The notes under the pieces: generated by a model
The model's database searches: none
What the model was told of the DNA's origin: nothing
Seen by the model: the letters and a program-made list of their open reading frames with translations, nothing else
Source: Mobula hypostoma
Lineage: Eukaryota
Assembly: GCF_963921235.1 (NCBI RefSeq)
Contig: NC_086097.1
Span: forward strand, 135,906,001-135,970,000
Reading direction: 5' to 3'
DNA length: 64,000 bases
In this document: piece after piece, positions 7,411-63,097 of the stretch
Layout of the letters: each line of letters opens with the position of its first letter
Position numbering within the stretch: the stretch's first letter is position 1
Program-made: the position numbers and the translations under genes

Positions 7411-7619
7411 ATTTGATCCTCCTGTCATGTCTAAGTCTATCAGTGGAACTTACTTTTTCCTTCAGCCCCATTGGCTTGTCCAGCTTCTCTTCAAGTGCAT
7501 CAACACTATTCACCTCAACACTTGCCTCTGGGCGTTAATACCATATTCTTCCCCCTACTCTGGTAAAGTAATTCCTGCTGTGCTACATACTGATAAATTA
7601 TCCAAGTGCAACCAAGCAG

Positions 7620-8640: not shown

Positions 8641-8651
8641 TGTACTTATCA

Positions 8652-8810
8652 CAAACACAAGAAAATCTGCAGATGCTAGAATTCCAAAGCAAAACACACA
8701 GAATGCTGGAGGAACTCAGCAGGCCAGGCAGCATCTATAGAAAAGAGTAAACAGTCGAGGTTTCGGGCTGAGATCCTTCTTTAGGATGGAGAGGGAAGGG
8801 GGGAGATACT
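8652..8810 (-). mobile_element. Penelope-like element 3' tail with decayed hammerhead motif
   Basis: ATCTGCAGATGCT...CAGCAGGCCAGGCAGCATCTAT...CAGTCGAGGTTTCGGGCTGAGATCCTTC, homologous to the tail of the PLE at 28220-30526. Confidence 0.7.
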
Positions 8811-20364: not shown

Positions 20365-22585
20365 AACATAGAACAAAGAACAGTACAGCACAGGAAAAGG
20401 CCCTTCAGCTAACAATGTTGTGTTGAGCCAGTCAATAACTGAACTAACTTTTTCTTCCTCTCCAAAGTCTATGTAATTTCATTTTCCTCATGTTCACGAG
20501 CCTATCTAAATGTCTCTTAAAAGTCCCCAAAGTTTCTGCGTCTGCCTCCACTCTAGGCAGCACATTCCACACACCCACCACTCTCGGTGCAAAAGGCTTG
20601 CCACTTACATCTCCTTTGAAATTACCTCCCCTCATGCCCTCTGGTACGAGACATTTCAACCCTGGGAAAAGGATACTGTTCGTCTACTCTATGCCTCTCA
20701 TAATCTTATGAACCTCTATCAGATCTACCCTAAGCTTCCGTCACTCCAGAGAAAGAAACCCAGCATTGCCCAACCTCTCATTATAGCACATGCCCCCTAA
20801 TCCAGGCAGCATCCTAGTCAATCTCCTCTGCACCCTCTCCAAAGCCTTGACACCCTCCCTATAATGTGTCAACCAGAACTCAAGATTCAGCCTAACTAGA
20901 CTTTTATAATGATGCAACATAACTTGTTGAATTTTGAACTCAGTACCTTGATTAATAAAGACAAGCAAGTCATATGCCTTCTTAACCACCCTACTACCTG
21001 TGTAACCACTTCCAGGGAACTTTGAACTTGGACCCCAAGATCCCTCTGCTCATCAACACTACAATGGTCTTGCCCTTATAATGCTGTCAATATATTAATG
21101 CTGTCAATATAATGGTCTTGCCCTTAACAGTGTTCTGTTCCATTACATTTGGCCTTCCAAGGTGCAACACTTCATGTTTGGTCGGGTTAAATTTCATCTG
21201 CCATTTCTCAGCGCATATCTGCAAATGATTTATAACCGGCTGTATTCTTTGCCAGTCTTCAACACAATCCACAACACCACCAAACTTCATATCATCTGCA
21301 AACTTACTAACCCACTCATCTACATTCTCATCCAGGTCATTTATATATATCACAATCAACAGACTGAACACCACTAATCACAGACCTTCAGATGGAATTA
21401 GCCGCTTCAACCACTGCTGTCTGTCTTCAATGGACAAACCAGTCCGGAATCCATATGGCCAATTCACCAGGGAACCCTTGCATCTTAATCTTCTGGATGA
21501 TCCTCCCATGAGGGACCTTGTCAAATGCCTTACGAAAATCCATGTAGACAACATCCACAGCTCTACCTTCATCAATCACCCTCGTCACCTTGTTAAAAAA
21601 CTCAGTAAAGTTAGTAAGACACGATTTGCCTCGCACAAAGTCATGCTGGTTCTCCCTAATTGGGTCATAGTTTTCCAAATGCTCATAAATCCTATCCCTA
21701 AGAACTTTCTCCTGTAATTTCCCTACTGATGTAAGATTCACCGATCTATAGTCTCCAGGATTATCCCTGGTTCCCTCCTCGAATAATGGAATGCCGTTGG
21801 TTACTCACCATTTCTCCAGCACCTCACCTGTGGCTAGAGAGGACACAAAGATATTGGTCAAGGCCCCAGCAATCTCTTCTCGTCTCTCTTCATAACCTGA
21901 GGTATATCCCGCCCCAGGGACTTATCCACCTTCATGCTCTTTCAGACTCCCAGCACCACTTTCTCATCTACCTCAAATACCCCAGCATATTAATACACAG
22001 GGCCCTGATCTCCCTATCCTCCACATCTTTCTCCTTGGTAGATACTGATATATAGTGCTCATTAAGGACCTGACCACATCCTCAGCATCCAAGCAAATGT
22101 CCTTGAGTGGTCCTACCCTGTCCTTAAATATCCTCTTGTATGTATATAATACCTGGGGATTCTCTTTAATCCTACTGGCCATGGACTTTTCATGGTCCTT
22201 CCTGGCTTTCCTAATTCCCTTCTTGAGTTCTTATCTGGCTTCCTTATAATACTCAATTTTGATTCTAGCATCCTAAACTTTACATGCTGTTCCCCTTTCT
22301 CTTGACTAAATTTGCCACCTCTCTCAATATGCAAGGTTCTCTTAACTTGTCATCCTTGTCCTTCATTCTGACTGGAACATACCTGCCCTGTACTCTGTAC
22401 AGTTGGTCTTTAAACACCTTCCTCATATCAGATGTGGACTTGCCTAAAAACAGCTGTTCCCAATTAACTCTCCCTAATCCCTGCCTAATGTTCTCGTAAT
22501 TTGCCCGTTCCGGTTTAATACTCTCCCACAACGTCCATACTTATCGTTATCTATAGCTATCTAAAGAGTTGTGGTCACTGTTCCC
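20365..22585 (-). mobile_element. Degenerate CR1 LINE ORF2 (RT) and 3' end
   Basis: Frameshifted ORF pieces QHDFVRGKSCLTN...VDVVYMDFRKAFDKVPH, YINDLD...SKFADDMK and LERVQRRLTRMLPG. Confidence 0.85.
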
Positions 22586-23288: not shown

Positions 23289-26200
23289 TCAGAACCCAGC
23301 CTTCCCTCCATACCCCCTGACCCCTGTAGCCACAAGGGCCATATCTAACTTCCTTTTAAACATAGCTAATGAACTGGCCTCAACAGTTTGCTGTGGCAGA
23401 GAATTCCACAGATTCACCACTCTCTGTGTGAAGAAGTTTTTCCTAACCTCGGTCCTAAAAGGCTTCCCCTCTATCCTCAAACTGTGACCCCTCGTTCTAG
23501 ACCTCCCCAACATCGGGAACAATCTTCCTGCATCTAGCCTGTCCAATCCCTTTAGGATCTTATACGTTTCAATCAGATCCCCCCTCAATCTTCTAAATTC
23601 CAACGAGTACAAGCCCAGTTCATCCAGTCTTTCTTCATATGAAAGACCTGCCATCCCAGGAATCAATCTGGTGAACCTTCTTTGTACTCCCTCTATGGCA
23701 AAGATGTCTTTCCTCAGATTAGGGGACCAAAACTGCACACAATACTCCAGGTGTGGTCTCACCAAGGCCTTGTACAACTGCAGTAGTACCTCCCTGCTCC
23801 TGTACTCGAATCCTCTCGCTATAAATGCCAGCATACCGTTCGCCTTTTTCACCGCCTGCTGTACCTGCATGCCCACTTTCAATGACTGGTGTATAATGAC
23901 ACCCAGGTCTCGTTGCACCTCCCCTTTTCCTAATCGGCCACCATTCAGATAATAATCTGTTTTCCTATTTTTGCCACCAAAGTGGATAACTTCACATTTA
24001 TCCACATTAAATTGCATCTGCCATGAGTTTGCCCACTCACCCAACCTATCCAAGTCACCCTGCATCCTCTTAGCATCCTCCTCACTGCTAACACTGCCAC
24101 CCAGCTTCGTGTCATCCGCAAACTTGGAGATGCTGCATTTAATTCCCTCATCCAAGTCATTAATATATATTGTAAACAACTGGGGTCCCAGCACTGAGCC
24201 TTGCGGTACCCCACTAGTCACCGCCTGCCATTCTGAAAAGGTCCCGTTTATTCCCACTCTTTGCTTCCTGTCTGCTAACCAATTCTCCACCCACACCAAT
24301 ACCTTACCCCCAATACCGTGTGCTTTAAGTTTGCACACTAATCTCCTATGTGGGACCTTGTCAAAAGCCTTTTGAAAATCCAAATATACCACATCCACTG
24401 GTTCTCCCCTATCCACTCTACTAGTTACATCCTCAAAAAATTCTATGAGATTCGTCAGACATGATTTTCCTTTCACAAATCCATGCTGACTTTGTCCGAT
24501 CATTTCACCGCTTTCCAAATGTGCTGTTATCACATCCTTGATAACTGACTCCAGCAGTTTCCCCACCACCGACGTTAGGCTAACCGGCCTATAATTCCCC
24601 GGTTTCTCTCTCCCTCCTTTTTTAAAAAGTGGGGTTACATTAGCCACCCTCCAATCCTCAGGAACTAGTCCAGAATCTAACGAGTTTTGAAAAATTATCA
24701 CTAATGCATCCACTATTTCTTGGGCCACTTCCTTAAGCACTCTGGGATGCAGACCATCTGGCCCTGGGGATTTATCTGCCTTCAATCCCTTCAATTTACC
24801 TAACACCACTTCCCTACTAACATGTATTTCGCTCAGTTCCTCCATCTCACTGGACCCTCTGTCCCTTACTATTTCTGGAAGATTATTTATGTCCTCCTTA
24901 GTGAAGACAGAACCAAAGTAATTATTCAATTGGTCTGCCATGTCCTTGCTCCCCATAATCAATTCACCTGTTTCTGTTTGCAGGGGACCTACATTTGTCT
25001 TTATCAGTCTTTTCCTTTTTACATATCTATAAAAGCTTTTACAGTCCGTTTTTATGTTCTCTGCCAGTTTTCTCTCATAATCTTTTTTCCCCTTCCTAAT
25101 TAAGCCCTTTGTCCTCCTCTGCTGAACTCTGAATTTCTCCCAGTCCTCAGGTGAGCCACTTTCTCTGGCTAATTTGTATGCTACTTCTTTGGAATTGATA
25201 CTATCCCTAATTTCTCTTGTCAGCCACGGGTGCACTACCTTCCTTGATTTATTCTTTTGCCAAACTGGGATGAACAATTGTTGTAGTTCATCCATGCAAC
25301 CTTTAAATGCCTGCCATTGCATATCCACCGTCAATCCTTGAAGTGTCATTTGCCAGTCTATCTTAGCTAATTCATGTCTCATACCTTCAAAGTTACCCCT
25401 CTTTAAGTTCAGAACCTTTGTTTCTGAATTAACTACGTCACTCTCCATGTTAATGAAGAATTCCACCATATTATGGTCACTCTTACCCAAGGGGCCTCTC
25501 ACGACAAGATCGCTAATTAACCCTTCCTCATTGCTCAAAACCCAGTCCAGAATAGCCTGCTCTCTAGTCGGTTCCTCGACATGTTGGTTCAAAAAACCAT
25601 CCCGCATACATTCCAAGAAATCCTCTTCCTCAGCACCTTTACCAATTTGGTTCACCCAGTCTACATGTAGATTGAAGTCACCCATTATAACTGCTGTTCC
25701 TTTATTGCACACATTTCTAATTTCCTGTTTAATACCATCTCCGACCTCACTACTACTGTTAGGTGGCCTGTACACAACTCCCACCAGCGTCTTCTGCCCC
25801 TTAGTGTTACGCAGCTCTACCCATATCGATTCCACATCTTCCCGGCTTATGTCCTTCCTTTCTATTGCGTTAATCTCTTTTTTAACCAGCAACACCACCC
25901 CACCTCCCCTTCCTTCGTGTCTATCCCTCCTGAATATTGAATATCCCTGAACGTTGAGCTCCCATCCCTGGTCACCCTGGAGCCATGTCTCTGTGATCCC
26001 AACTATATCATAATCATTAATAACAATCTGCACTTTCAATTCATCCACCTTATTACGAATGCTCCTTGCATTGACACATAAAGCCTTCAGGCACTCTTTT
26101 ACAACTCTCTTAGCCCTTTTTAATGCTTGCCCTGGATTTGTCGGCCTGCCACTTTTACTTTTCCCCTTTGTACTTTTTGCTTCTACGCTCACTTTACACC

Positions 26201-26309
26201 CCTCTGTCTCTCTGCACTGGTTCCCATCCCTCTGTTGTGAACTAACCTCCTCACACCTAGCCGCTTTAATTTGATTCCCACCCCCCAACCATTCTAGTTT
26301 AAAGTCACC
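23289..26309 (-). CDS. CR1 ORF2: apurinic-like endonuclease plus reverse transcriptase (no AUG start; the frame opens at 26309)
   Basis: APE motifs NARS, ITETW, VYRPP, GDFN and SDH; RT motifs YLDFQKAFDKV, GVPQGSVLGP and FADD; CR1 C-terminus TRGH...FFTQRVVNLWNSLP. About 1000 codons without a stop. Confidence 0.95.
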   Translation of the reverse strand, partial: GDFKLEWLGGGNQIKAARCEEVSSQQRDGNQCRETEGCKVSVEAKSTKGKSKSGRPTNPGQALKRAKRVVKECLKALCVNARSIRNKVDELKVQIVINDYDIVGITETWLQGDQGWELNVQGYSIFRRDRHEGRGGGVVLLVKKEINAIERKDISREDVESIWVELRNTKGQKTLVGVVYRPPNSSSEVGDGIKQEIRNVCNKGTAVIMGDFNLHVDWVNQIGKGAEEEDFLECMRDGFLNQHVEEPTREQAILDWVLSNEEGLISDLVVRGPLGKSDHNMVEFFINMESDVVNSETKVLNLKRGNFEGMRHELAKIDWQMTLQGLTVDMQWQAFKGCMDELQQLFIPVWQKNKSRKVVHPWLTREIRDSINSKEVAYKLARESGSPEDWEKFRVQQRRTKGLIRKGKKDYERKLAENIKTDCKSFYRYVKRKRLIKTNVGPLQTETGELIMGSKDMADQLNNYFGSVFTKEDINNLPEIVRDRGSSEMEELSEIHVSREVVLGKLKGLKADKSPGPDGLHPRVLKEVAQEIVDALVIIFQNSLDSGLVPEDWRVANVTPLFKKGGREKPGNYRPVSLTSVVGKLLESVIKDVITAHLESGEMIGQSQHGFVKGKSCLTNLIEFFEDVTSRVDRGEPVDVVYLDFQKAFDKVPHRRLVCKLKAHGIGGKVLVWVENWLADRKQRVGINGTFSEWQAVTSGVPQGSVLGPQLFTIYINDLDEGIKCSISKFADDTKLGGSVSSEEDAKRMQGDLDRLGEWANSWQMQFNVDKCEVIHFGGKNRKTDYYLNGGRLGKGEVQRDLGVIIHQSLKVGMQVQQAVKKANGMLAFIARGFEYRSREVLLQLYKALVRPHLEYCVQFWSPNLRKDIFAIEGVQRRFTRLIPGMAGLSYEERLDELGLYSLEFRRLRGDLIETYKILKGLDRLDAGRLFPMLGRSRTRGHSLRIEGKPFRTEVRKNFFTQRVVNLWNSLPQQTVEASSLAMFKRKLDMALVATGVRGYGGKAGF
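26294..26303 (-). promoter_or_regulatory. Candidate -1 ribosomal frameshift site U_UUA_AAC followed by the ORF1 stop UAG
   Basis: The minus strand reads ACT TTA AAC TAG in the ORF1 frame. The -1 frame TTT AAA CTA GAA TGG TTG is ORF2. The same motif occurs at 13454-13463 (+). Confidence 0.6.
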
Positions 26310-28180: not shown

Positions 28181-28313
28181 TTTTAAATTTGTGACATGTC
28201 AGAGCAGAGAAAGGGCAAACAACAGGAATTCTGCAGATGCTGGAAATTCAAGCAACATGCATCAAAGTTGCTGGTGAACGCAGCAGGCCAGGTAGCATCT
28301 CTAGGAAGAGGTA

Positions 28314-28350
28314 CAGTCGACGTTTCAGGCCGAGACCCTTCGTCAGGGCT
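28314..28350 (-). ncRNA. Minimal type-I hammerhead ribozyme motif (Penelope tail)
   Basis: Minus strand AGCC CUGACGA AGG-GUCUCGG-CCU GAAA CG UC GACU. The core is intact with one stem-I mismatch. Confidence 0.7.
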
Positions 28351-28911
28351 AACTGAAGGAAGAGCTGGTAAGAGATTTGAAAGTGAGAGGGGGAGGGGGA
28401 GATCCAAAATGATAGGAGAAGACAGGAGGGGGAGGGATGGAGCCAAGAGCTGGACAGGTGATTGGCAAAGGGAATACGAGAGGATCATGGGACAGGAGGT
28501 CCGGGGAGAAAGACAAGGTGGGGGGGGACCCAGAGGATGGGCAAGGGGTATAGTCAGAGGGACAGAGGGAGAAAAAGGAGAGTGAGAGAAAGAATGTGTG
28601 TATAAAAATAAATAACAGATGGGCTACGAGGGGGAGGTGGGGCATTAGCGGAAGTTAGAGAAGTCGATGTTCATGCCATCAAGTTGGAGGCTACCCAGAC
28701 GGAATATAAGGTGTTGTTCCTCCAACCTGAGTGTGGCTTCATCTTTGCAGTAGAAGAGGCCATGGATAGACATGTCAGAATGGGAATGGGATGTGGAATT
28801 AAAATGTGTGGCCACTGGGAGATCCTGCTTTCTCTGGCGGACAGAGCGTAGGTGTTCAGCAAAGTGGTCTCCCAGTCTGCGTCGGGTCTCGCCAATATAT
28901 AGAACAACATT

Positions 28912-30189
28912 TTGGATTCTAGACCTAATCAGTTCCCCTCTCCCACCACTCTGCTCCGTCTAACGGAATTAGTCCTTACTCTTAATAATTTCTCCTTTCG
29001 CTCCTCCTACTTCCTCCAAACTAAAGGTGTAGCTATGGGCACCCGTATGGGTCCTAGCTATGCCTACCTTTTTGTTGGCTTTGTGGAACAATCTATGTTC
29101 CATGCCTATTCTGGTATCTGTCCCCCACTTTTCCTCAGCATTGGTGCTGCTTCCTGCACGCATGCTGAGCTCGTTGACTTTATTAAATTTGCCTCCAACT
29201 TTCATCCTGTCCTCAAGTTTACCTGGTCCATTTCTGACACCTCCCTCCCCTTTCTAGATCTTTCTGTCTCTGTCTCTGGAGACAGCTTATCCACTGATGT
29301 CTACTATAAGCCTACTGACTCTCACAGCTGTCTGGACTATTCCTCTTCTCACTCTGTCTCTTGCAAAAATGCCATCCCCTTCTCGCAATTCCTCTGTCTC
29401 CGCCGCATCTGCTCTCAGGATGAGGCTTTTCATTCTAGGACGAGGGAGGTGTCCTCCTTTTTTAAAGGAAGGGGCTTCCCTTCCTCCACTATCAACTCTG
29501 CTCTCAAACGCATCTCCCCCATTTTACGTACATCTGCTCTCACTCCATCCTCCCGCCACCCCACTAGGAATAGGGTTCCCCTGGTCCTCACCTACCACCC
29601 CACCAGCCTCCGGGTCCAACATATTATTCTCCGTAACTTCTGCCACCTCCAACGGGATTCCACCACTAAGCACATCTTTCCCTCCCCCCACCCCGCTTTC
29701 TGCAGGGATTGCTCCCTACGCGACTCCCTTGTCCATTCGTCCGCCCGATCCCTCCCCACTGATCTCCCTCCTGGCACTTATCCTTGTAAGCAGAACAAGT
29801 GCTACACATGCCCTTACACTTCCTCCCTTACCACCATTCAGGGACCCAGACAGTCCTTCCAGGTGAGGCGACACTTCACCTGTGAGTCGGCTGGGGTGAT
29901 ATACTGCGTCTGGTGCTCCCGATGTGGCCTTCTATATATTGGCAAGACCCGACGCAGACTGGGAGACCGTTTTGCTGAACACCTACGCTCTGTCCGCCAG
30001 AGAAAGCAGAATCTCCCAGTGGCCACACATTTTAATTCCACATCCCATTCCCATTCTGACATGTCTATCCACGGCCTCCTCTACTGTAAAGATGAAGCCA
30101 CACTCAGGTTGGAGGAACAACACCTTATATTCCGTCTGGGTAGCCTCCAACCTGATGGCATGAACATCGACTTCTCTAACTTTTGCTAA
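28912..30189 (+). pseudogene. Penelope RT C-terminal half plus GIY-YIG endonuclease (5'-truncated, catalytic YIDD missing)
   Basis: QTKGVAMGTRMGPSYA, LPFLDL, YYKPTD; Cys linker CKQNKCYTC; VIYCVWCSRCGLLYIGKTRRRLGDRFAEH; C-terminal PDGMN. Confidence 0.9.
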
Positions 30190-30478
30190 TGCCCCACCTC
30201 CCCCTCGTACCCCATCCGTTATTTATTTTTATACACACATTCTTTCTCTCACTCTCCTTTTTCTCCCTCTGTCCCTCTGACTATACCCCTTGCCCATCCT
30301 CTGGGTCCCCCCCCTTTTCTTTCTCCCTGGGCCTCCTGTCCCATGATCCTCTCGTATCCTCTTTGCCAATCACCTGTCCAGCTCTTGGCTCCATCCCTCC
30401 CTCTCCTGTCTTCTCCTATCATTTTGGATCTCCCCTCCCTCTCCCACTTTCAAATCTCTTACTAACTCTTCCTTCGGT

Positions 30479-30516
30479 TAGTCCTGACGAAGGGTCTCGG
30501 CCTGAAACGTCGACTG
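30479..30516 (+). ncRNA. Minimal type-I hammerhead ribozyme motif (Penelope tail)
   Basis: Stem I AGUC (30480-30483) / GACU (30512-30515), CUGACGA 30484-30490, stem II AGG/CCU, GAAA 30504-30507, palindromic ACGU stem III, predicted cleavage after GUC at C30511. Confidence 0.8.
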
Positions 30517-32187
30517 TACTTCTTCCCAGAGAAAGGGCAAATGGGCTTTCATGTGTCTTCGTAAGTGAAACTTCGGGTGGTTTCCAATGGAAATGTCATT
30601 CTATGAAGGGCCTTTCCACCAACCACAGAGGGTGACTCAGGAAGACAGCTGGTTGAAGAGAATGACCCTGGATGGGAAACTGTCAAATGACAGAGGATAA
30701 TAGACCGAGGGGAGGTAAACATGGGCTTGACTATGAACAGCCTAGACACATTAAACCACACTGATGAAACCTTTAAACTTGACACCATTTGGTCAGAACC
30801 ATAATTACTCACAAGACTGACAGTAAATGGGAATCTTTACTTGAAGAATGCTACATGATGCACACACAAAGGTTGGTAAAGTGGGTGGAACAGATATTAA
30901 TGAAAATTGAGACACATAATCATTGAATTAACTCAAAACAGATGAGTTCCAGTCATTTCTGGCTCGGCACTCAGTACACCATTAATAGTCAAGAACATCT
31001 ATTGAAAGAGGGGTTGCTGCTGGGAGAATGGAGCTTACAGGAGATCAGGCACGGGCACACAGGGTGCATGACCTTCTGTGATCCTGATTCCAGGATGTAC
31101 ATAATTTAGAAAACAGTCTGTCTGGACTTTACGGAGTCCACTGAGTTTTCATTGTGACTCCTGACCATCCATTTATTTTATAAATTTTATTAAAGTCTTT
31201 TGAGGATTGTGTGTGAGCTGAACTCTTCTTGGGATGTGTGTGTGTGTGTGTATGTGTTTATGGAGAAGGGTTTGTGTTACAAGGGAATAGAGGCTCTTCC
31301 CAATGAATTCAGCAGCTCCTCCCTGGGTCTGGTGTTCCTCAATGTTGTGACAGTTCTTCTGTTCCCTCCAGCACAAAACAAGATATTTCTCTTGTGTGAA
31401 AATACAGCAATGTGTCAGACGGATCTCTCACAGAAAAAAGCCAGAGAGGGTTGATAGATGCTGGTGACCAGTTTTTGTAAATCTAGTTAGCTCCATCTTG
31501 GGTACCAGCCTACAAAGTACCCAGGACATCATCAACCTTTCTGCTGCCATCCTTGTCAGTGTGGGGGACACAGCCAGTGCTCACCATCCAAACTCACCCA
31601 GGAAGATGAACAATCACTGAACAGGGAGCTGTTCAACACCTCTGACCTATGCTAATTTGCAATTGGTTTTAATCATCAATTAGCATAGTTTATAATTGTA
31701 GTTTAACTTTAATTATAGATCAATTATAGTTAAATTATAGCTTGAAATATTGAGATCCAGTGATAAACATTCGTTCAGTGTCCTATCCAGAGAGATTGTT
31801 CAATACAGAATTACATCGAAGCAAAATCATGACAGAAAGCAACATTTAGTGCTACAGTTACAGGGAAAGTTCAGTGCAGGTAGACAAATTACTCCCCTGT
31901 CTGTCCTCTCCTCTTCCCGCAGATGGTGGTTTATGTCAAAGTCAAATGAATGAAGCTTGGTGTTGGGGTCATGTGCACAAGTACATACATGTGCTGCAGC
32001 TTCACAGACACATGGTGTCAGATACACAGCATTCACAAGCTAAACGTACATTAAGCATAACTTAAATGCAACTTTTACAAGAAAGAACAGAATTAGAGTT
32101 TTCCACAATTAGAACAAAAAAAAGGAAGTCCATTGTGCAAAGTGATTGAAGTGGTCATTGCGTTGTTAGAGCTATTTTTCCATAAGA

Positions 32188-33480: not shown

Positions 33481-34454
33481 ATGTGGATCCCAGATAGGCC
33501 ACTACAGCCACCTGAAGATCCAACAATAGACAACCCCCTTAGGAGAACATCATACTTGATTCGATTGATTGCACTCCCACTACTACTACTGCAACAATGA
33601 AACAGAACTCTTTAATCTTCTAAGAAAGTAGAGGAGCAGTCATGCTTTCCTTGTGAGTGCTGGGCTTGGGACAGGATCATTAATATCTGCTCCGAATGAT
33701 AATACAGCACTCATTTGCCATATAACCTGGATCTTTGTGCTGAGGTGGGGCTTGAAATCACGGCCTCCCTCTCAGAGGCAAGAATGCTTGTGAGCGAACC
33801 CATAACAAGCTGCAGTTTAGTACATCTACCACATGGTTCTAACACCAAAGGAACGGTAGTTGTTCAGATTCATCTGTGGCTAACTGACCGACTGAAGGAT
33901 AGTGATGTAAATGCATTATTCTGTCACTTTAGTTTTTGTATTTTCCAGTCTTATGTCACCCTGGTGTGGATTATTCATTAACAATCCAACAAAACTAGCC
34001 AATAAGAGCACAGTTTGCTACCCAACATTAGCTCTGTCTGGAAAGAATTGAGCTTTGTTGCAGCTAATCATAGTGGAAGACCCTGTTGTGCTTTACAGGG
34101 CATTGTAAGTGGACAACATTAACCCTTTTGACTTATTTCCACCTCATAAACAAGAGTGATTGATTTTTAGTTAATCTGTCCCTGAGACATTTAATTTGGC
34201 AAGCGACCTGTATGTCTGGAGCCATATTTGAGGCTTGCAGCAAGAGGGCAAGAGTAGTTAGCATCATACACAAAATTTCAGGCAGCGACTCTTCATTGAC
34301 ATTTCTGTCCGAAATGTCAACTGCTTGTTTCCCGCCATAGATGCTACCTGACTGTCCTACTGAGCGTGTCTGTATTTTGCATGTGTTGATCAAGGTCTCC
34401 AGCATCTGCAGGATCTCATGTGCCTCTGTGGCTGCAATTAGCATTTTATCTCCC

Positions 34455-35118: not shown

Positions 35119-36490
35119 GCAACACACAGCAAAGTTGCTGGTGAACGCAGCAGGCCAGGCAGCATCTCTAGGAAGAGGTACAGTCGACGTTTCAGGCCGA
35201 GACCCTTTGTCAGGACTAACTGAAGGAAGAGTTAGTAAGAGATTTGAAAGTTGGAGGGGGACGGGGAGATCCAAAATGTTAGGAGAAGACAGGAGGGGGA
35301 GGGATGGAGCCAAGAGCTGGACAGGTGATTGGCAAAAGGGATACGAGAGGATCATGGGACAGGAGGTCCAGGAAGAAAGACAAGGGGGGGGGAACCCAGA
35401 GGATGGGCAAGGGGTATATTCAGAGGGACAGAGGGAGAAAAAGGAGAGTGAGAGAAAGAATGTGTGTATAAAAATAAATAACGGATGGGGTACGAGGGGG
35501 AGGTGGGGCATTAGCAGAAGTTAGAGAAGTCGATGTTCATGCCATCAGGTTGGAGGCTACCCAGACGGAATATAAGGTGTTGTTCCTCCAACCTGAGTGT
35601 GGCTTCATCTTTACAGTAGAGGAGGCCGTGGATAGACATGTCAGAATGGGAATGGGATATGGAATTAAAATGTGTGGCCACTGGGAGATCCTGCTTTCTC
35701 TGGTGGACAGAGCGTAGGTGTTCAGCAAAGCGGTCTCCCAGTCTGCGTCGGGTCTCACCAATATATAAAAGGCCACATCGGGAGCACCGGACGCAGTATA
35801 TCACCCCAGCCGACTCACAGGTGAAGTGTCGCCTCACCTGGAAGGACTGTTTGGGGCCCTGAATGGTGGTAAGGGAGGAAGTGTAAGGGCATGTGTAGCA
35901 CTTGTTCCGCTTACATGGATAAGTGCCAGGAGGGAGATCAGTGGGGAGGGATGGGGGGGGGGACGAATGGACAAGGGAGTCGCGTAGGGAGCGATCCCTG
36001 CGGAAAGCAGTGGGGGGGAGGGAAAGATGTGCTTAGTGGTGGGATCCCGTTGGAGGTGGCGGAAGTTACGGAGAATAATATGTTGGACCCGGAGGCTGGT
36101 GGGGTGGTAGGTGAGGACCAGGGGAACCCTATTCCTAGTGGGGTGGCGGAAGGATGGAGTGAGAGCAGATGTACGTGAAATGGGGGAGATGCGTTTAAGA
36201 GCAGAGTTGATAGTGGAGGAAGGGAAGCCTCTTTCTTTAAAAAAGGAGGACATCTCCCTCGTCCTAGAATGAAAAGCCTCATCCTGAGAGCAGATGCGGC
36301 GGAGACGGAGGAATTGCGAGAAGGGGATGGCGTTTTTGCAAGAGACAGGGTGAGAAGAGGAATAGTCCAGACAGCTGTGAGAGTCAGTAGGCTTATAGTA
36401 GACATCAGTGGATAAGCTGTCTCCAGAGACAGAGACAGAAAGATCTAGAAAGGGGAGGGAGGTGTCGGAAATGGAGCAGGTAAACTTGAG
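35119..36490 (-). mobile_element. Penelope-like element 3' portion (same family as 28220-30526)
   Basis: ORF 35511-35837 encodes the GIY-YIG domain VIYCVRCSRCGLLYIGETRRRLGDRFAEH. The tail hammerhead at 35181-35217 carries a CUGACAA core change. Confidence 0.9.
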
Positions 36491-37892: not shown

Positions 37893-38559
37893 ATGCAATA
37901 CTGCATTTTAAGTATTTTTAAAGGCAATAAGGTTACATGAAGGTTTGAAAAATCGGGGTAAGAAAAAGAGTGGAGGGATTTTTGAAGTACCTAGACTTTG
38001 TCCCAGTATCTGCAGGCTATCATGCGGTGCCACCTGTCCTTGTGCTTTTCACCTCCCATGTCTGTGGCCAGCCAGCCTCGTGTCAAGAGTCAACACAAAA
38101 TCTGGCAGCCATCTCCTACTCCCTGCCGAGGGTTTCCGATAACTGGTCCACAGTGGTAACGTCCTCACTGCGTGTCTGTGCACCTTGGGGGCAGCATCTA
38201 TTACCAGCCCAATGTCCCGATGTTCTCTCAGTGAGATGCCTGGGGGCAGGGTTCAGCGGGAAGCTTTAACCCCACCCCTTCAGCTCATAAGAGCTTAGTT
38301 CTGAGAAGCTTGTTGAAGTAACTATGTGCTTACCGGTCCCAGATTTAGGAGACTCCAGCCTAGACTGACCATGCCTGCAGCAAATGTCTAGGTTGTGTTT
38401 ATTGTCATAGGTACAAGTACATGTAAAATGAAAAGCTTGCAGCTGCATCAAAGCCACATGGTATCATATGTGAAGCATTCACAAGGTAAACATAAATTAA
38501 ACTTAAATTATCTGTAGTTGTTACAAGAAAGAGCACAACTAGAACAAAAAAGGACAAAG

Positions 38560-38785
38560 AGAAGAAAATCTGCAGATGCTGGAAATCCAAGCAACGCACA
38601 CAAGACGCCGGAGGAACTCAGCAGGCCAGGCAGCATCTATGGAAAAGAGTAAACAGTCGATGTTTTGGGCCGAGACCCTTCACCAGAACATCAGTCCTGC
38701 TGAAGGGTCGCAGCCCGAATTGTTGACTGTTTACTCTTTTCCATAGATGCTGCGTGGCCTGCTGAGTTCCTCCAGCATTTTGCAT
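38560..38785. mobile_element. Fold-back element made of two Penelope tails in inverted orientation, nested in a Rex1 fragment (about 38390-39430, minus)
   Basis: GGAGGAACTCAGCAGGCCA.GCAGCATCTATGGAAAAGAGTAAACAGTC is the reverse complement of GACTGTTTACTCTTTTCCATAGATGCTGC.TGGCCTGCTGAGTTCCTCC. The centre is near 38690. Confidence 0.8.
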
Positions 38786-39904
38786 TTATCAGAACAAAGT
38801 CCTTTTTAAGGCAAAGTAATCAGACTGTTCAGAGTGTTGCTAGGTTGAGGTGGTGATTAGTGCTATGCAGGTTGGTTCAAGAACTGAATGGTTGAAAGGG
38901 AAGTAACTGTTCCTGAAGCTGGTGGTGAGGGATTTCAAGCTTCTGAGTCCTGAGGGAGGGCCTCAGCCTGAAACATTGATTGCTATTCATTTCTGTAGAT
39001 CCGCGTGACCTGCTGAGTTCCTCCAGCATTTTGTGTGTTGTTGTTCTGTACCACCTAGCTGATAACAACTGTGTGAAGATGACATAGCCCAGATGGTGGG
39101 ACCGTTGATCGTAGATGTTACCTCCTTGAATCAGTGCCTCTCAAAGATACCACTAATGTGGGAAGGGATGTGCTCAAGGTGTATTGGACAGAGTCCAGTT
39201 CTCCCAGCTGCTGCTTCCCATTCTAGTGCATTTGAATTGCTGCACCAGACCATGATGCAACCAGTCAGAATATTTACAACAGTACATTCATAAAAGTTTG
39301 TTTGAGTGTTCAGTGACAAGCTGAGCTTCCTTAACCTTCTAATGAAAGTAAACACTCTGGGGCGCCTCCCTTGTGATTGTGTCAATATGCTGGGCCCAGG
39401 TTAGGTCATCCAATACGTTTGCCCAGGAACACCTCAGATTCTCTGATTCCTGTGTGATGTTACTTCAACTACAAGGACATGAACTCAGCTTGTTGTTCCT
39501 CTGGCCCAGGGAGAATGAACTTGCAATGACAGATATCAGGAGGACTCTGTGACTGTTGGTCTGGATTATCTTGTGTGTCCATATTTTCCTTTGGTCCTCA
39601 CAACCCCTTTGTAATTGGGGCAATTCTGTCAGATTTAACACTTTCTCATTCCCTCATTTTCTAATAAAGCTGATCAAAATTTTCACTTCACTTGAGTCAG
39701 GAGTTCCAGTCTTCTGGCTGCCGTGATAACCAAGGTGGTCATTTAGTACTCCAAAAGCAAATTTTCCAAATGATGGGGTCCACCAGATTCAAATACACTG
39801 GTTTGAACTGGATACAAGTTATAGAGTCCTGGAGCACGTCAAAAAGCCCTCTGGCACACCTTGTCCATGCTGAACATCACATACTATCTATACTACTCCC
39901 ATTG

Positions 39905-46393: not shown

Positions 46394-47274
46394 GGACCCA
46401 CCACAACCACTTCCTCTGGCAGATTCTATATACCCACCATTCTCTGGGTGACAAGCATCCCCTGAAGGTCCTTTTAAAATTTTCCCCTTTCATCTTAAAC
46501 CCATGCCCTTTAATTTTAGATTTGATACCGTGGAAAAAAACCTGTCACCACCCTCCTTTTCATAGTCTCTCATATTTTTTAAACCTCTACATTGATACCC
46601 CTCAGCCTCCCTTGCTCCATAGAAAGCAGTCCCATGCTACCCAGTCTCCCCTGGTAACTCAAGCTCTCCAGTCCCAACAACATTCCTGTAAATGTTTCCT
46701 GCACCCCCTCTAGTTTAATGACATTCTTCCAAAAATACAGTCACCACTTCCCAAGTGGCACTCAACCAATGATATGACATCCCAACATTTCTGGTCAATT
46801 CCTTGGCAGACGAACAGAAGCAAATTATATACCTTCTTCACCACTTCGGCATATGAGTCACCCCTTTCAGGGAATTATATGTTGATAAGATTTGAATTTA
46901 TTTTATTTAACCTTGCTTTTTGATATTATCATGATCCATCCCAGTTATACAAATTGCGTTAGTTTCTGGAATTTGAACTTTAACTCCAGAGTAGTTAGTT
47001 ACCAAACCATCACTATTGGAACTGTGCCTTTATTTCCTCTTAGTTCTATTACTCAGAATCCTGATGCAAGTTCTAACCCCTAAAGATAATAATTATGCTC
47101 TTTATCACTACAATAATGTCCCCTTATTTACAAGAAATTGCAAGAAATCAAACTTTAAGTTACCATTCTTCTTGTTGCAAGGGAAAATGTCAAAAGAAGT
47201 TTGAGCAGGAAGAGAAGGTTAGGATTTGTATAAGGTCTTTCAGGGCTAGGGGATTTCAGCTCTGGGACTCTGTA

Positions 47275-50200
47275 GGTCAGGCACCATCTATGGAAATGAA
47301 TAAGCAGTCAACGTTTTAGATCAAGACGCTTCTTCAAGACTGGACAGAAAGGGGGAAGATGCCAGAATAAAAAGGTGGGGGGAAGGGAAAGAGGATAGTT
47401 AGAAGGTGATAGGTGAAGACAAGTGGGTGGGAAAGGTAAAAGGCTGAAGAGGAAGGAATCTGATAGGAGGGGAGAATAGCCTGTAGGAGCAAGCGAAGGA
47501 GGAGAGGACCTGGGGGGGGTGATAGGCAGGTGAGAAGAGGTAAGAGGCAAGAGTGGGGAACAGTAAAATTGGGGAGAAGGGAGGGAAAATGTTCTTACCG
47601 GAAAGCGAAATCGATATTCATGCCATCAGGTTGGAGGCTACCCAGATGGAATATAAGGTGTTGCTACTTCACCCTGAGGATGGCTTCATCTTTGCACAAG
47701 AGGAGACCATGGAACAGAACAGGAATGGGAGTCGGAATTAAAAAGTTTTGACACTGAGAAGTTCTGCTTTTGGTGGATGGAGAGAAGGTGCTCAGTGAAG
47801 AGCTCCCCCAATTTACAACGGGTCACACCAGCGTAGAGGGAAGCCACGCAGGGAGCACCGGATACAATGGATGACCCCAGCAGATACATTTGCCTCACTT
47901 TGAAGGATTGTTTGGGGCCTGAATGGAGGTGAGAGAGGAGGTGAATGAGCAGGTGTAGCACTTTGGCCACTTGCAGGGATAAGTGCCGGGAGGGACAAAT
48001 CTGAGTCAGGGATATCCCTCCTGCTCTTCGATGAGAAGATGCCCCAGTGCTGTATTTTTTGTTACACTCCAAAGAGCCATTATCAACAGAGCAGCACCAT
48101 CAGAACCGGACTGCTGATTTAAATTGGGGTACACGCTCCCGCACCTGGAGTGAGGCTTGAATCCATGAATTTATGGCTCAGAGGCAAGTGCACTCGTGCT
48201 CGTCAAGGCTGTGGAAGAAGGCTTGAGGCAAAACAACAGCCTGGGTATAAAGCTATGCTGTGAGATAATTGCTGGTAAATGCACACCGTAAAAACGTAAA
48301 CACGAGGAAATCTGCAGGTGCTGGAAATTCAAGCAACACACACAAAAATTGCTGGTGAATGCAGCAGGCCAGGCAGCATCTATAGGAAGAGGTACAGTCG
48401 ACGTTTCGGGCTGAGACCCTTTGTCCTGACCTTGGCCTGCACTGTAAAAAAGTAATTGTGGGGCTGTGGAAGAGGTAGGAATAGGACTAATTGGAGGTCA
48501 CTTTCAGAGAGAAAGCACAGCCTTGATGAACTGAATGGCCTCCCACTGGGCACAATGGGTGATCCACTCTAGCATTGATTCTACTTTTCTTTGACAAACT
48601 GAGCAAGAAAGAGGGAAGAAAATAAAAATCTGGGATTTATTTGGTAGTGTTCATCGTGTTCTAACCTATTTCTATATATGGACATTCTTCATTCTTATTG
48701 GCTGAGGAAGTCATGTGATATACCTACTCAAAATGGTGTCAATAACTAGAATGCCCGGTCCAGAAAGTAACTAGTAAGAGTACCAATACGAAGTTCAAGT
48801 GTTAAGCGTTCAACTTTATTAATAACGCACAAAATGCTGGAGGAACTCAGGTAGTACCTATGGAAACAAATAAACAGGCAATGTTTTGGGCTAATTATCT
48901 ATCATCAGGTGATAGAGAAAGCTCGTCGAGTGGGGAGGTAGATGGGTGGAAGAGAAGGGATAAAGTGAGAAGCTGGCAGGTGATAGTTGGAAAAGGTAAA
49001 AAGCTGAAGAAAAATGAATCTGATAAGAGTGGAGAGTTGACCATGGGAGAAAGAGAAGTAGATGGGGGCAAACTGAGGGAGGTGATAGGCAGGTGAGGAG
49101 AAGAGGTAAGAGGAAAGCTAGAATGGGGATTGGAAAAAGAAAGGAGGCGTGAAGGGCAGAAATTGCTGGAAGTTAGAGAAATTGATGTCCATGAATGTTG
49201 GAGGTTACCCAGATGGAATATGAAGTGTTGCTCCTCGAGCGCTACTCTGGATTTCCAGCATCTGCAGAATCTCTTGGTGATTATTAATAAGTAATTATAA
49301 TTCTTTGACATTCATAATGTTCAGTTGGAAATATCAGGAGCACAGACAGAAGAGATTTCATGTTCAGTTAGTGACTTGAGAGCTAAGCATTGCTACCAAA
49401 ATGAGAGTTTACTTGTACAATCTTCCTGCTTGTTCTTTCTTCACATTTCAGGCTGCCAGCAGCTGCGAATCAAACAATGTTCATTCCTGGTAGTGTCACA
49501 AGAGATTAAACATAGTGCTGGAGGCGACAAAGGGCTGCAGATGGTGGGATCTGATGGGAAAGGAAGATGGAGCTGGGAACCAAATGAGGGAGATGGGGAG
49601 GGCAGATGTTGGGGAAAGTAGGGATTGGTGAGAGGTAGGAGGAATGTTTGGGAGATGGGCAGATACAGAAGGTGGAGGAGGGGAAAGAAATAGTGTACTG
49701 AGGGTGGGGGTTCAAGCAGGAGATGTGTATTTCAGGAGGAGAGAGGAAGGGATAGAGAGGGATCAGATTACCTGAATTTGGGGAACGCGGTGCTCATGCT
49801 GTTGGGTTGCAGACTAAGCAGGTGGAATATGTTTTCCATCGACAACTGACAGGATAATTGGGTGGCCAACCACTTTAATTCCTGTCCCCATTCCCATTGA
49901 GACATGTGGGTCTATGGTCTCTTCTACTGTCATGATGAGGCTACTCTCAGCTTGGAGGAGCAATGCCTCATATTCCGTATGGGTAGCTTCCAACCTGACA
50001 GTATGAACATTGATTTCTCTAAATTTGGCAATTTCTTTCCCCTCCCCCTTCTCTCTTTTCCACTCTCCATTTTGGCTCTGCTATTAACTCCTTTCTTCCT
50101 CTCTCCCACCTATCACCTCCCTCTAGTGCACCTCCACCTTCCCTGTCTCACACAGTGCACTCTCTTTGCCTATAACATTTCTTCTTCACCTTTTCCCTAT

Positions 50201-50485
50201 CACCTCTCAGCTTCTCACTTCAAACCCCCTCCCAACCCAACTACACTCCCCCCCCACCACTGCAACTCACCTGGCTTTGCCTATCACCTGCCAGCCCGTA
50301 CCCCCTTCCCTCCCCCTCTCCTTCTTATTCTGGCTTCTTCCCCTCTTGCTTTCCAGTTCCATTGAAGGGTCATGCTCTGAAACATTGATCCTTTATTTTA
50401 TCTCCATAAATGCTGCCTGACCTGCTGAACTGCTCCAGCATTTCGTGTGTTACTCTGCATTTCCGGCATCCGCAGAACCTCTTTT
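47275..50485. mobile_element. Cluster of older Penelope 3' fragments (about 47275-48000 -, 48298-48430 -, 48825-49280 -, 49500-49830 -, 49850-50485 +)
   Basis: GIY-YIG C-terminal remnants (LEEQCLIFRMGSFQPDSMNIDF; LEEQHFIFHLGNLQ), purine/pyrimidine-skewed 3' regions and decayed hammerhead tails. Confidence 0.75.
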
Positions 50486-56467: not shown

Positions 56468-57650
56468 CCTTATGGTATATCTGCAGACATGTCACTTGTT
56501 ATGAGTGATGGATATGAACACTCATGTCCCTGCATCACATTCCCTTACTGCTGCAGGTAAAAATTACGCACAGATTGACAGAAAGCCCTTGAGTCTGGTT
56601 TGGGGTGTAAATTGTTTTAACCAATTTACCCTCATTGCTGATCATCAACCACTAGTGTCCATTTTCAATCTACAGAAGAGCATTCCACCACCAGCAGTAG
56701 CACGAATGCAGAGATGGGCTCTGTTTTGGGGAGGACATAACCACAAGATGAATCCCAGTTCAGGCCTGAGGATGAGGAATGAGCTGATGTTTGGCTGATT
56801 TAAGCTTAGGGCCAGAATGTAAAGGTTGGGGTGTCAGGCCCAGGGGCAAAGGATGGGCTAGTGTTCTGTGAAGTTTACTTGTCTCTGTGGTGAACTGAGG
56901 CTGTGGCCTGCAATTAACAGGCTCTGAACTGGCTACAGAGATGAAATGCCTTGGTGGCTGTAGACTCACTTTCATGATTTTAGTTCTGAGTGTTACTTGT
57001 TTGCATTTTATTGTTTGCACAGTTCGTTCTTTTTTCACACGTTGGGTGTTTGATGATCCTTTTTATTGGGTTTTATTGTTTGTTTCTGTGGCTGTCTGTA
57101 AAAAGATGAATTTCAAGGTTGTTTATAGCATGCATACTTTGATGATAGAAATACTTTGAACTTTGTAAAGGACAACAGATCTTGGAAATGCTGATATATT
57201 GTCCTGCTTACCCTTGGGAAAAGAAATACCTGAAAAAACTGCAAATGGCTTGGCAGGAAGGTTTCTCTGGAACTAAAGTAGACTCTGAGAAATATTAGCA
57301 GAACACACCACTCTGACGCAGAATCAGAAGCTCTCAAATTTCTTCCTTGGATACCGCAATGCAACGCACTCCATAACCAACAACTCACTCGCTATGCTGT
57401 TCCTACGTCATCCCTTGCACTCACACTTGGATCTCCTCAACCCAATCTCAGAAGGAGAATGCAGGACAGGCAGCTGAGACAAATAGAACGCTCCTCAAAC
57501 AAACACTCTGGCGAGGGACTACAGAGGTGATCAAAAGTGGGTACTTGGAATGATTACTGGACCACTCTCCTGCATAGTGCAGATTGCTACTGATATCACC
57601 TGGAGACAACCCATTGATCAGTGGAGAGCAGAGCTGACTGTTAGAAGAGG

Positions 57651-57777
57651 TCCTGACGAAGGGTCTCGGCCTGAAACGTCGACTGCGCCTCTTCCTAGAG
57701 ATGCTGCTTGGCCTGCTGCCTTCGCCAGCAACTTTGATGTGTGTTGCTTGAATTTCCAGCATCTGCAGAATTCCTGT
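57651..57777 (+). mobile_element. About 130-bp Penelope-tail mini-insertion beginning with an intact hammerhead motif
   Basis: 12-bp direct repeat TGTTAGAAGAGG at 57639-57650 and 57778-57789. CUGACGA 57653-57659, GAAA 57673-57676, GUC 57678-57680. Confidence 0.85.
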
Positions 57778-61869: not shown

Positions 61870-62050
61870 AGACACAAGAGATTGTAGATGTTGGAATTTG
61901 GAGCAACCTACAAGATGCTGGAGGATCAGACAGCATCTGTGGATAGAAATAGGCGGTTGATGTTTCAGCTCGAGACCCTTCATCTGGACTCACGTGAGAC
62001 CATGTCCTTCCACAGTTGCTGCCTGACCGATTTGAGTTCTTCCAGCATCT
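61870..62050. mobile_element. Decayed fold-back Penelope tail element
   Basis: Minus arm ending ...GATGTTTCAGCTCGAGACCCTTCATCTGGACT, followed by plus-arm remnant TGCTGCCTGACC...GAGTTCTTCCAGCATCT. Confidence 0.55.
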
Positions 62051-63097
62051 GGACTGATGGTTATAAGTTCTTGATTAATGCTTCCTTAACTCTCTCTGAA
62101 GGTAATTTTGCCTGTTACATTTGTTACAACAGACTTTGTTGAAGAATGCTACTCTGGTTGAACTGTGAGGTTTCTTGTCTTTTGAATAAGAATATTGTGT
62201 TCAACGCTTACTCACACAATCTCGGCTGACCTCACAACCGGGGGAAATTCCCATTGTAATGGTGAGGGCTACCAGGTTCAAATACAGAATAGGACTGAAT
62301 TCAAGTCATAGAAACATCACAGAAACAGGCGCTTTAGCCCACCGTGCTGAACTTCAAGTACCCATTTACTAGCATTGATCCATTATTTGTAATGCCCTTG
62401 CACATCTAGATACTTCATAAATGTTCTGGAAAAACCTGTTTCCAACATTCTAATGGGTGGATTTCAACCACCCCCTAGGTGAAAAAATTCATCCTCGGAT
62501 CCTCTTTGAACCTCCTAATGCTTACCCTAAACCTAACCCCTTGAGACAAGCTATCAGGCTGTGATTCAAAGAGGTAAAGAGAATATTAAAATCCCAAACG
62601 TAAGGCTCTTCGTTAACATTCCTCTCTTGTGTGACTGAAGAAGGTTCACACTGGTGTATTTGGAATCTTGCCCGTGATAATTGACGTCAGCCAACCATAA
62701 TAAATTTGTGCAAACATTTTCAGATATTCTTTCCTTACAAATTAGTGGTTGTGAGGTTGGTTAGATCAAAATTAGAGTAACAAAACCCTTTACAGGCTGT
62801 GGGTGAAGTTGTCCAATAGACAGCTCAATTAATCCTTTCAGTTTCAAATGCCATGTGATTTATGATGTCCCCAGGCCAGGAGAATGAGTATGGATGCAAA
62901 TAAATGGAGAAAATACTGGAAACACTCAACAGGCCAGTCAGCTTCTGTGGAGAAAGACGAAACAGTCTGAGATTATTCATCAATATGGATACAAATCCTG
63001 GTACAAAAACTGTTCATTGAAGTGACTTAATTGTGTAACTGCTTTATTATTTCACCTATACCAAGAAGCAGTGAAGAGGTTTGTTCATGTGTCATCT

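What the first reader, a model, noticed from the sequence alone, without database searches (positions are those of the whole stretch)
30479..30516. Minimal hammerhead ribozyme in the Penelope tail, probably active as a dimer
Seen: AGUC-CUGACGA-AGG(GUCUCGG)CCU-GAAA-CG-UC/GACU has every hammerhead core nucleotide, 4-bp stem I, 3-bp stem II and only a palindromic ACGU in place of stem III. Copies with an intact core lie at 28314-28350 (-) and 57650-57684 (+); a G8-mutated copy is at 35181-35217 (-). Decayed copies lie near 8750, 34290, 38655-38730, 38950, 47310, 48395, 50360, 61635 and 61960. Established: Penelope-like elements carry minimal type-I hammerheads, and such short-stem-III variants can cleave as dimers. 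Inference: more than ten ribozyme-derived motifs in 64 kb imply a very large genomic hammerhead load that could cut host pre-mRNAs.
Basis: partly seen in the sequence, partly recalled or inferred. Interest (0 to 1): 0.7.

Follow-up and report, generated by a model that had tools for sequence, protein, structure and literature searches.

The report
Penelope-element minimal hammerhead ribozyme copy
This is a real, intact-looking copy of the small self-cutting RNA motif that Penelope-like jumping genes are already known to carry, sitting in a dead, shortened copy of such an element, so it is an ordinary example of a known kind.

Summary
The motif is real. All hammerhead core bases lie at 30480-30515. 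A structural descriptor finds 2 hits in the window against 0.02 per shuffle. It sits in the pseudo-LTR of a 5'-truncated Penelope-like element (RT, CxxC linker, GIY-YIG). This is the minimal hammerhead described in 2014 for metazoan, including fish, Penelope-like elements. This scan has already noted it elsewhere in this genome and in others.

(1) Stem II is more likely 4 bp behind an unpaired A than AGG/CCU.
(2) The 28315 and 30480 motifs are opposite-strand arms of one insertion with a 15-bp target duplication, so they cannot pair within one transcript. The nearest intact same-strand copy is 27 kb away.
(3) The monomer folds into a rod that hides the core.
(4) The copies span the cut site, so their templates were uncut.

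Only 3 of 12 aligned copies keep the core, and there is no double-sided covariation. Cutting of host pre-mRNA is unsupported. One lead: 5 of 14 short arms (4 insertions) begin at the ribozyme's 5' edge, possibly a transcription start. Cleavage was not tested.

The parts
30480..30515 (+). Minimal type-I hammerhead motif (the finding); T30479 and G30516 can add a wobble pair to stem I
30480..30483 (+). Stem I, 5' strand (pairs with 30512-30515); also the position at which several short copies begin
30484..30490 (+). Core box C3-A9 (CUGACGA); its GACG can mis-pair with CGUC at 30508-30511
30491..30503 (+). Unpaired A (between 9 and 10.1), then 4-bp stem II 30492-30495/30500-30503 with CUCG loop
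30504..30511 (+). GAAA box, palindromic ACGU (30507-30510) in place of stem III, predicted cleavage after C30511
   Evidence: numbering from established hammerhead convention
30190..30526 (+). Pseudo-LTR of the sense arm (pyrimidine-rich stretch, hammerhead, only 15 nt past the cut site; no tail)
28903..30189 (+). 5'-truncated Penelope-like ORF remnant, 428 open codons: RT C-terminal half, CX4CxxC linker, GIY-YIG endonuclease
28220..28904 (-). Inverted arm of the same insertion: endonuclease C-terminus, pseudo-LTR, hammerhead, full tail
28315..28350 (-). Hammerhead of the inverted arm; core intact, private C-A mismatch in stem I
28205..28219 (+). Target-site duplication, left copy (15 bp)
30527..30541 (+). 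Target-site duplication, right copy (15 bp)
35119..36490 (-). Third young copy of the element; hammerhead at 35182-35217 with A at core position 8; short 3' end
57650..57777 (+). About 128-bp solo insertion of hammerhead plus tail with a 12-bp target duplication (57639 and 57778); intact core; begins at the hammerhead 5' edge
38554..38785 (.). Two inverted decayed arms, both beginning at the hammerhead 5' edge (one long-tailed, one short)
38946..39041 (+). Decayed hammerhead-headed mini copy inserted in another repeat that resumes on the far side
61872..62055 (.). Decayed inverted pair with an 11-bp flanking duplication; the minus arm begins at the hammerhead 5' edge
34271..34419 (.). Decayed inverted pair with its junction inside the hammerhead; 7-bp flanking duplication
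48296..48431 (-). Short copy truncated inside the core
8651..8788 (-). Decayed copy, older subfamily
47265..47995 (-). Older copy with endonuclease remnant and decayed hammerhead at 47306-47341
49862..50483 (+). Older copy with endonuclease remnant and decayed hammerhead at 50355-50390

Best explanation
The motif is the minimal type-I hammerhead carried in the pseudo-LTR of an endonuclease-positive Penelope-like retrotransposon with a Neptune/Nematis-type linker.

Shown: this copy is one arm of a dead two-armed insertion. A 5'-truncated sense arm and an inverted arm are bounded by a 15-bp target duplication, and each arm has about 2% private changes.

Inferred: each arm was primed from one nick of the target on uncut element RNA. 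The sense arm was primed by a 6-nt microhomology 15 nt past the cut site.

Inferred: in the source element the ribozyme is latent. Alone it folds into a rod in which the core pairs with the CGUC of the cleavage strand. It cuts after C17 only when a second copy supplies stem III through the palindromic ACGU (tandem transcript or two RNAs in one particle), the element's protein refolds it, or both. Its target is the element's own precursor RNA. This dispersed copy has no partner in cis and is most likely a silent passenger that will decay at its CpG sites like its neighbours.
For: Core and descriptor. RT-GIY-YIG ORF directly upstream, with 59 full-length relatives up to 50% identical. CX2-5CxxC linker in 58 of 60 proteins, the query included. 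Inverted arm and TSD. 14, 12 and 11 private differences in 603 columns among three young arms. Rod fold with core pairs at P 0.96-0.98; hammerhead conformer 1e-3 to 1e-6 in six contexts. All 12 aligned copies span the cut site. Literature: no monomer activity and low dimer activity (PMC4209133); protein-assisted, dispensable for insertion, unprocessed RNA the main template (PMC11167929).
Against: No cleavage assay or RNA-end data. Nearest-neighbour folding ignores tertiary contacts, ions and proteins. Covariation is not above shuffles (410 of 500 reach the score), so selection on the structure in this family is not shown here. This copy has G-U rather than the conserved G10.1-C11.1. The clade name rests on one motif, not a tree. 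A 2017 paper whose title reports cleavage as dimers could not be read, so dimer activity may be higher than I allow.
Confidence: 0.85

Rival explanations
1. One reading: this and the other intact dispersed copies are active in vivo as trans-dimers and cut host pre-mRNAs that contain them.
For: The core is intact in 3 of 12 aligned copies. The family is very abundant: 7,796 to 66,814 contigs laid on a 751-bp stretch in each of 4 runs. Minimal hammerheads show some dimer cleavage (PMC4209133). A preprint reports retrozymes depleted from Xenopus introns and exons, which fits a cost to genes (10.64898/2026.07.22.740005, passages).
Against: No intact same-strand partner within 27 kb. The inactive rod and extended duplex dominate. 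A 4-bp intermolecular stem needs high local concentration (inference). No host exon domain in 97 plus 13 ORFs scanned (short exons would be missed). No strand bias among intact copies (2 plus, 1 minus). No read ends at the site in Anolis (PMC11167929).
Confidence: 0.07
2. The motif is kept mainly as a non-catalytic cis signal. Its 5' edge is the element's transcription start, its palindrome pairs two template RNAs in the dimeric particle, or both. Cleavage is secondary.
For: 5 of 14 short arms (4 insertions) begin within about 3 nt of A30480's equivalent, each with an independent junction sign: TSD, inverted partner or interrupted host repeat. The top loose-end site in 4 of 4 runs is this position. 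The edge reads YYANWYY like an initiator (consensus recalled). The two arms of the finding's insertion overlap by about 600 bp, which suggests two templates. The Anolis protein is predicted to be a dimer and insertion does not need cleavage (PMC11167929).
Against: Clustering is weak once paired arms are merged: P 0.05-0.25 for any 5-nt window, 0.001-0.007 for a fixed one. The loose ends are confounded by a private mismatch in the reference and by an older subfamily with a different upstream sequence. The same edge also reads as a 3' splice site. No RNA 5'-end data. Head-to-head repeats have a published self-priming explanation (PMC3846280).
Confidence: 0.2
3. Chance likeness: a repeat end that merely resembles a hammerhead.
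For: No Rfam hit; no double-sided covariation.
Against: 2 descriptor hits against 0.02 expected, although the two are copies of one family. The position in the pseudo-LTR, the unpaired A and the palindrome all match the published consensus (PMC4209133).
Confidence: 0.03

Closest known systems
Minimal hammerheads (min-HHR) in the pseudo-LTRs of metazoan Penelope-like elements, including Xena, Poseidon and Neptune of fishes (Cervera and De la Pena 2014, PMC4209133; parts 1-2 of 4 read: abstract, results, discussion, start of methods)
   Same: Type I, 4-5 bp helix I, unpaired base between 9 and 10.1, palindromic 15.2-16.2 without helix III, location in the pseudo-LTR, mostly dispersed single motifs, some close pairs on opposite strands.
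   Different: Helix II is 4 bp (7-8 bp in the Schistosoma families). This subfamily has G-U at 10.1-11.1 instead of G-C. The density here (about 20 family fragments in 64 kb) looks far above the 4,000-9,000 motifs per genome reported for coelacanth and Xenopus, but those counts are descriptor matches and I had no genome to count.
Hammerhead of the Anolis Poseidon element PAc (Frangieh et al. 2024, PMC11167929; parts 1-2 of 4 read; supplements listed, not read)
   Same: Stems I and II only; two alternative 3' ends about 35 nt apart (tail); copies made from uncut RNA.
   Different: PAc's ORF starts at stem II, whereas this subfamily has no ATG there and its ORF start is not in the window. This element has a CxxC linker, which PMC8557442 assigns to Neptune and Nematis. 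Protein-assisted cleavage was shown for PAc only.
Short-stem-III hammerhead variants that cleave as dimers (Lunse, Weinberg and Breaker, RNA Biol 14:1499; seen only as a reference title and through passages of review PMC6765202)
   Same: Palindromic, extremely short stem III; association with Penelope-like elements.
   Different: Could not compare sequences or rates; paper not held.
Animal non-LTR retrozymes (10.64898/2026.07.22.740005; part 1 of 5 and passages read)
   Same: Non-autonomous, hammerhead-bearing sequences derived from Penelope pseudo-LTRs; reported in one chondrichthyan.
   Different: Retrozymes are defined as tandem arrays. The copies here are dispersed solos or inverted pairs, each with its own target duplication.

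Membership tests
min-HHR of metazoan Penelope-like elements | Conserved core CUGANGA, GAAA, UH in type-I order | tested here: met
min-HHR of metazoan Penelope-like elements | Short helix I (4-5 bp) and a helix II | tested here: met
   4 bp plus a wobble pair; 4-bp helix II
min-HHR of metazoan Penelope-like elements | No helix III; palindromic 15.2-16.2 | tested here: met
   ACGT at 30507-30510
min-HHR of metazoan Penelope-like elements | Unpaired base between positions 9 and 10.1 | tested here: met
   P 0.86-0.95 against 0.02; 12 of 12 against 8 of 12 paired
min-HHR of metazoan Penelope-like elements | G10.1-C11.1 pair (a consensus trait, not part of the published descriptor) | tested here: inconclusive
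   G-U in this copy and 8 of 12 copies, G-C in 4 of 12; C variant 24, 34, 66 and 76% of summed contig depth in four runs
min-HHR of metazoan Penelope-like elements | Located in the pseudo-LTR downstream of an RT-GIY-YIG ORF | tested here: met
   290 nt after the stop codon; same arrangement at 28315 and 35182
min-HHR of metazoan Penelope-like elements | Compensatory changes in the helices | tested here: inconclusive
   0 double-sided changes among 12 decayed copies; 410 of 500 shuffles reach the score; the variation is mostly CpG-type
min-HHR of metazoan Penelope-like elements | Self-cleavage as dimer or with protein help | not testable with these tools
   needs an in vitro assay
Endonuclease-positive Penelope-like element | RT followed by C-terminal GIY-YIG in one ORF | tested here: met
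Endonuclease-positive Penelope-like element | Inverted 5'-truncated arm, target duplication, 30-40 bp tail at one end | tested here: met
   compare PMC8557442 and PMC3846280 (passages)
Neptune or Nematis clade | CX2-5CxxC motif in the RT-EN linker | tested here: met
   CKQNKCYTC; 58 of 60 proteins; feature from PMC8557442 (passages)
Neptune or Nematis clade | Placement in an RT tree with named reference elements | not tested
   no named references were fetched
Canonical type-I hammerhead (Rfam families) | Stable helix III and loop-loop contact; Rfam match | tested here: not met
   0 hammerhead families among 9 Rfam matches at E up to 5
Non-LTR retrozyme | At least two consecutive tandem units with complete hammerheads | tested here: not met
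   intact same-strand copies are 27,169 nt apart; only two decayed plus-strand fragments lie close (61632, 61718)

The most novel reading that the evidence does not exclude
In this family the hammerhead is the first 36 nt of the element's transcript, with its stem I edge doubling as the initiator. Short hammerhead-plus-tail RNAs made from any pseudo-LTR are then copied back as roughly 130-bp mini elements. The ACGU palindrome pairs two such RNAs inside the dimeric particle, like a retroviral dimer-initiation site. This would explain at once the flood of solo minimal hammerheads and the two-armed inverted insertions of Penelope-like elements, with cleavage as a late, regulated step.
Probability: 0.12. 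Interest if true: 0.62.

Novelty: new member of a known kind. Interest (0 to 1): 0.2.

Why it matters
As a class it is known since 2014, so one more copy changes little. The family is still a good test bed for an open question, namely what Penelope hammerheads do. It has very many copies of graded age with mappable junctions. A peak of 5' junctions at the ribozyme edge, or at the cut site, can be measured genome-wide, and so can intron orientation bias of intact against core-mutated copies. If the host-RNA-cutting idea were true it would be a large unrecognised load on gene expression, but nothing found here supports it.

Tried and rejected
Rfam scan: no hammerhead family. The MIR6020 match at 38637-38746 (34.7 bits, gathering score 118) is just the inverted pair.

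No whole genome is held for this window, so there are no genome-wide counts of my own.

Pattern scans for more copies gave 0 loci, 32 loci and 1 locus. In one search, 28 of these 33 loci gave an alignment, none longer than 28 nt and none reaching the hammerhead; all were dropped as chance.

Sequencing runs: no RNA holder listed on record, so nothing is concluded on expression. All four runs laid were contigs, which cannot show RNA ends; the table of begin and end places was empty. Depth differences along the stretch were not used.

A cis-dimer between 28315 and 30480 was rejected because they are on opposite strands.

My first label 'Poseidon' was dropped after the CxxC linker was seen.

The N-termini of 59 relatives did not map to the tail (best hit E 0.008, outside any pseudo-LTR). 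The frame from the ATG after the hammerhead is open in one older copy but closed in a young one. The ORF start is therefore unresolved.

An extended stem I at 61635 was considered and set aside; by eye the 3' side looks like an inverted tail end. 62968 was considered as a copy starting at the cut site; its upstream bases look like a decayed core.

No TSD of 6 or more nt was found for 38946, 8786 or the 35-36 kb copy.

Host exon scan: 97 of the 155 stop-to-stop frames of 85 aa or more (those in or near known elements left out) plus 13 earlier frames gave only retroelement domains.

Literature searches listed no paper on this family or on 5' junctions clustering at the hammerhead edge; most subscription papers are not searched. 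The 2017 dimer paper is not held.

Full report
1. Observation. Window 30480-30515 holds every hammerhead core base in type-I order, with C30511 as the predicted cleavage base. A descriptor requiring both core boxes and both stems hits only 30484 and 57653; 200 dinucleotide shuffles average 0.02 hits. The two hits are copies of one family, so they are not independent. Rfam returns 9 weak matches, none a hammerhead. A profile built from 10 copies finds 22 hits at E up to 1 (18 below 0.001) and none on the reversed window. Of 12 copies aligned over the 36 nt, 3 keep the core: 30480, 57649 and 28350, the last with a stem I mismatch. That mismatch is private: over 97% of the contig depth in four public runs shows the pairing base.

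2. Structure. The favoured stem is G-U, G-C, G-C, U-G with a CUCG loop, behind an unpaired A30491 (0.86-0.95). In that register the first pair holds in 12 of 12 copies (8 G-U, 4 G-C). The C variant makes up 24, 34, 66 and 76% of summed contig depth in four runs (not copy numbers). An unpaired base at this place is part of the published consensus (PMC4209133). There is no double-sided change in either register and the score does not beat shuffles (410 of 500). Most changes are of the CpG-decay type, so selection on the fold is not shown here.

3. Folding. The monomer's best fold is a rod (-10.0 kcal/mol) in which GACG of the core pairs with CGUC of the cleavage strand (P 0.96-0.98). The open hammerhead conformer is 1e-3 of the ensemble alone and 1e-5 to 1e-6 with flanks (six contexts, two copies). 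For two strands, an extended duplex (-28.3) beats the double hammerhead (-9.5). These numbers ignore tertiary contacts and proteins.

4. Context. The motif lies 290 nt after the stop of a 428-codon frame (28903-30189) with a GIY-YIG domain. 59 proteins of 750 or more residues match it at E up to 1e-30, the best at 49-50% identity, most with an RT domain. The window holds only their C-terminal half. A CX4CxxC linker is present, as in 58 of the 60 proteins. PMC8557442 (passages) gives such a linker to the Neptune and Nematis clades; no tree was built. An inverted arm (28220-28904) carries the endonuclease end, the pseudo-LTR, the 28315 hammerhead and the full tail. A 15-bp duplication at 28205 and 30527 bounds both arms, so they are one insertion. 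The two arms and the copy at 35119-36490 have 14, 12 and 11 private differences in 603 columns. The sense arm stops 15 nt past the cut site, where the family sequence TAGAGA meets the target's CAGAGA; I infer priming by microhomology. Family copies end at two places about 35 nt apart, matching the Penelope tail. That the host is a cartilaginous fish comes from my recall of similar repeats and from earlier AI notes; it was not tested.

5. What this says about activity. The two hammerheads of this insertion face opposite ways, so one transcript holds only one in sense. The next intact plus-strand copy is 27,169 nt away. All 12 aligned copies carry both sides of the scissile bond, so their templates were uncut or re-ligated. 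This agrees with the Anolis element: cleavage only with protein, not needed for insertion, no read ends at the site (PMC11167929). It also agrees with no monomer and low dimer activity in PMC4209133. The family is very abundant: 15,054, 7,796, 66,814 and 44,450 contigs were laid on a 751-bp stretch in four runs. Abundance does not show cutting. No host exon domain was found (exons in frames under 85 codons would be missed). For balance, a preprint reports retrozyme depletion from Xenopus introns, and the 2017 dimer-cleavage paper could not be read.

6. A lead. Of the 20 profile hits with E up to 0.23 (two weaker hits dropped), 6 extend far into the pseudo-LTR and 14 are short. Five of the 14 begin within about 3 nt of the stem I edge: 57650 (12-bp TSD), 38946 (the host repeat resumes), 38689 and 38693 (an inverted pair, one event) and 61990 (inverted pair, 11-bp duplication). 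Their upstream 30 nt do not resemble the long copies'. Under uniform ends over 150 or 80 nt, P is 0.006-0.05 for 5 of 14 arms in any 5-nt window. It is 0.05-0.25 for 4 of 13 once the pair is merged, and 0.001-0.007 for a fixed window. In all four runs the largest listed loose-end pile is at this edge (114, 59, 477 and 303 contigs). Its agreement is low (0.38-0.43), like the true 3' end (0.42-0.43) and unlike most other listed sites (0.55 or more). The reference's private mismatch and an older subfamily's upstream sequence confound this. The edge fits an initiator consensus (recalled) and equally a 3' splice site; in Drosophila virilis the intron ends at helix I (PMC4209133), while the start lies 46 nt before the intron (PMC2377424, passages). 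I rate a non-catalytic cis role at 0.2 and the full novel case at 0.12. I noted this idea before seeing an earlier AI note on about 130-nt hammerhead-headed minis in another genome. Another note reports one insertion starting at the cut site instead. Neither was checked on its own DNA.

7. Comparison and verdict. It meets the testable defining features of the minimal Penelope hammerhead and works like one; catalysis is untested. It is not a canonical hammerhead and not a tandem retrozyme. Seven literature searches listed no paper on this particular family. The scan has noted the same family several times in this genome. Observation confirmed, interpretation partly supported, new member of a known kind, interest 0.2.

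Noticed in passing
window 23289-26309 (-): Uninterrupted 1005-codon frame with APE endonuclease and RT domains (a LINE ORF2), so a fairly young non-LTR element.
   Followed up: no
window 11894-11962 (-): tRNA-like sequence below the Rfam gathering score (23.5 against 29 bits), probably a SINE head or pseudogene.
   Followed up: no
window 55520-56795 (+): RT and RNase H-like fragments, probably a decayed LTR retrotransposon.
   Followed up: no
window 39990-41276 (-) and 21427-21804 (-): Further RT fragments of decayed retroelements.
   Followed up: no
window 28316 and 28347 in public contigs (table 5c): Runs X19 and X20 each show a joint from 28347 to 28316 with three letters between; the kind is not shown. 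It could be a fold-back at stem I or a head-to-tail hammerhead doublet that could dimerise in cis. X4 shows opposite-strand joints at 28347.
   Followed up: no
window 61631-61797 (+): A hammerhead-like copy with both core boxes and a 13-nt larger stem-II region, followed 86 nt later by a second decayed plus-strand fragment; nested structure unclear.
   Followed up: partly
window 61983-62003: The junction of an inverted pair is a near-perfect 16-nt palindrome, like the junction palindromes described for rotifer Penelope elements (PMC3846280, passages).
   Followed up: partly
window 30480-30515 and family: The young subfamily has four CpG sites in 36 nt, two in essential places (core 7-8 and the palindrome), so host methylation would inactivate copies quickly.
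   Followed up: partly
window 28298-28314 (-) and family: Just after the hammerhead, a pyrimidine run followed by AG and then ATG resembles a 3' splice site; CUGAC of the core resembles a branch site (consensus recalled). No matching donor was established.
   Followed up: no
window 28216-28300 (-): The tail is predicted to be structured: an 8-nt sequence after the hammerhead is complementary to one near the long end, enclosing a hairpin that ends at the short end.
   Followed up: no
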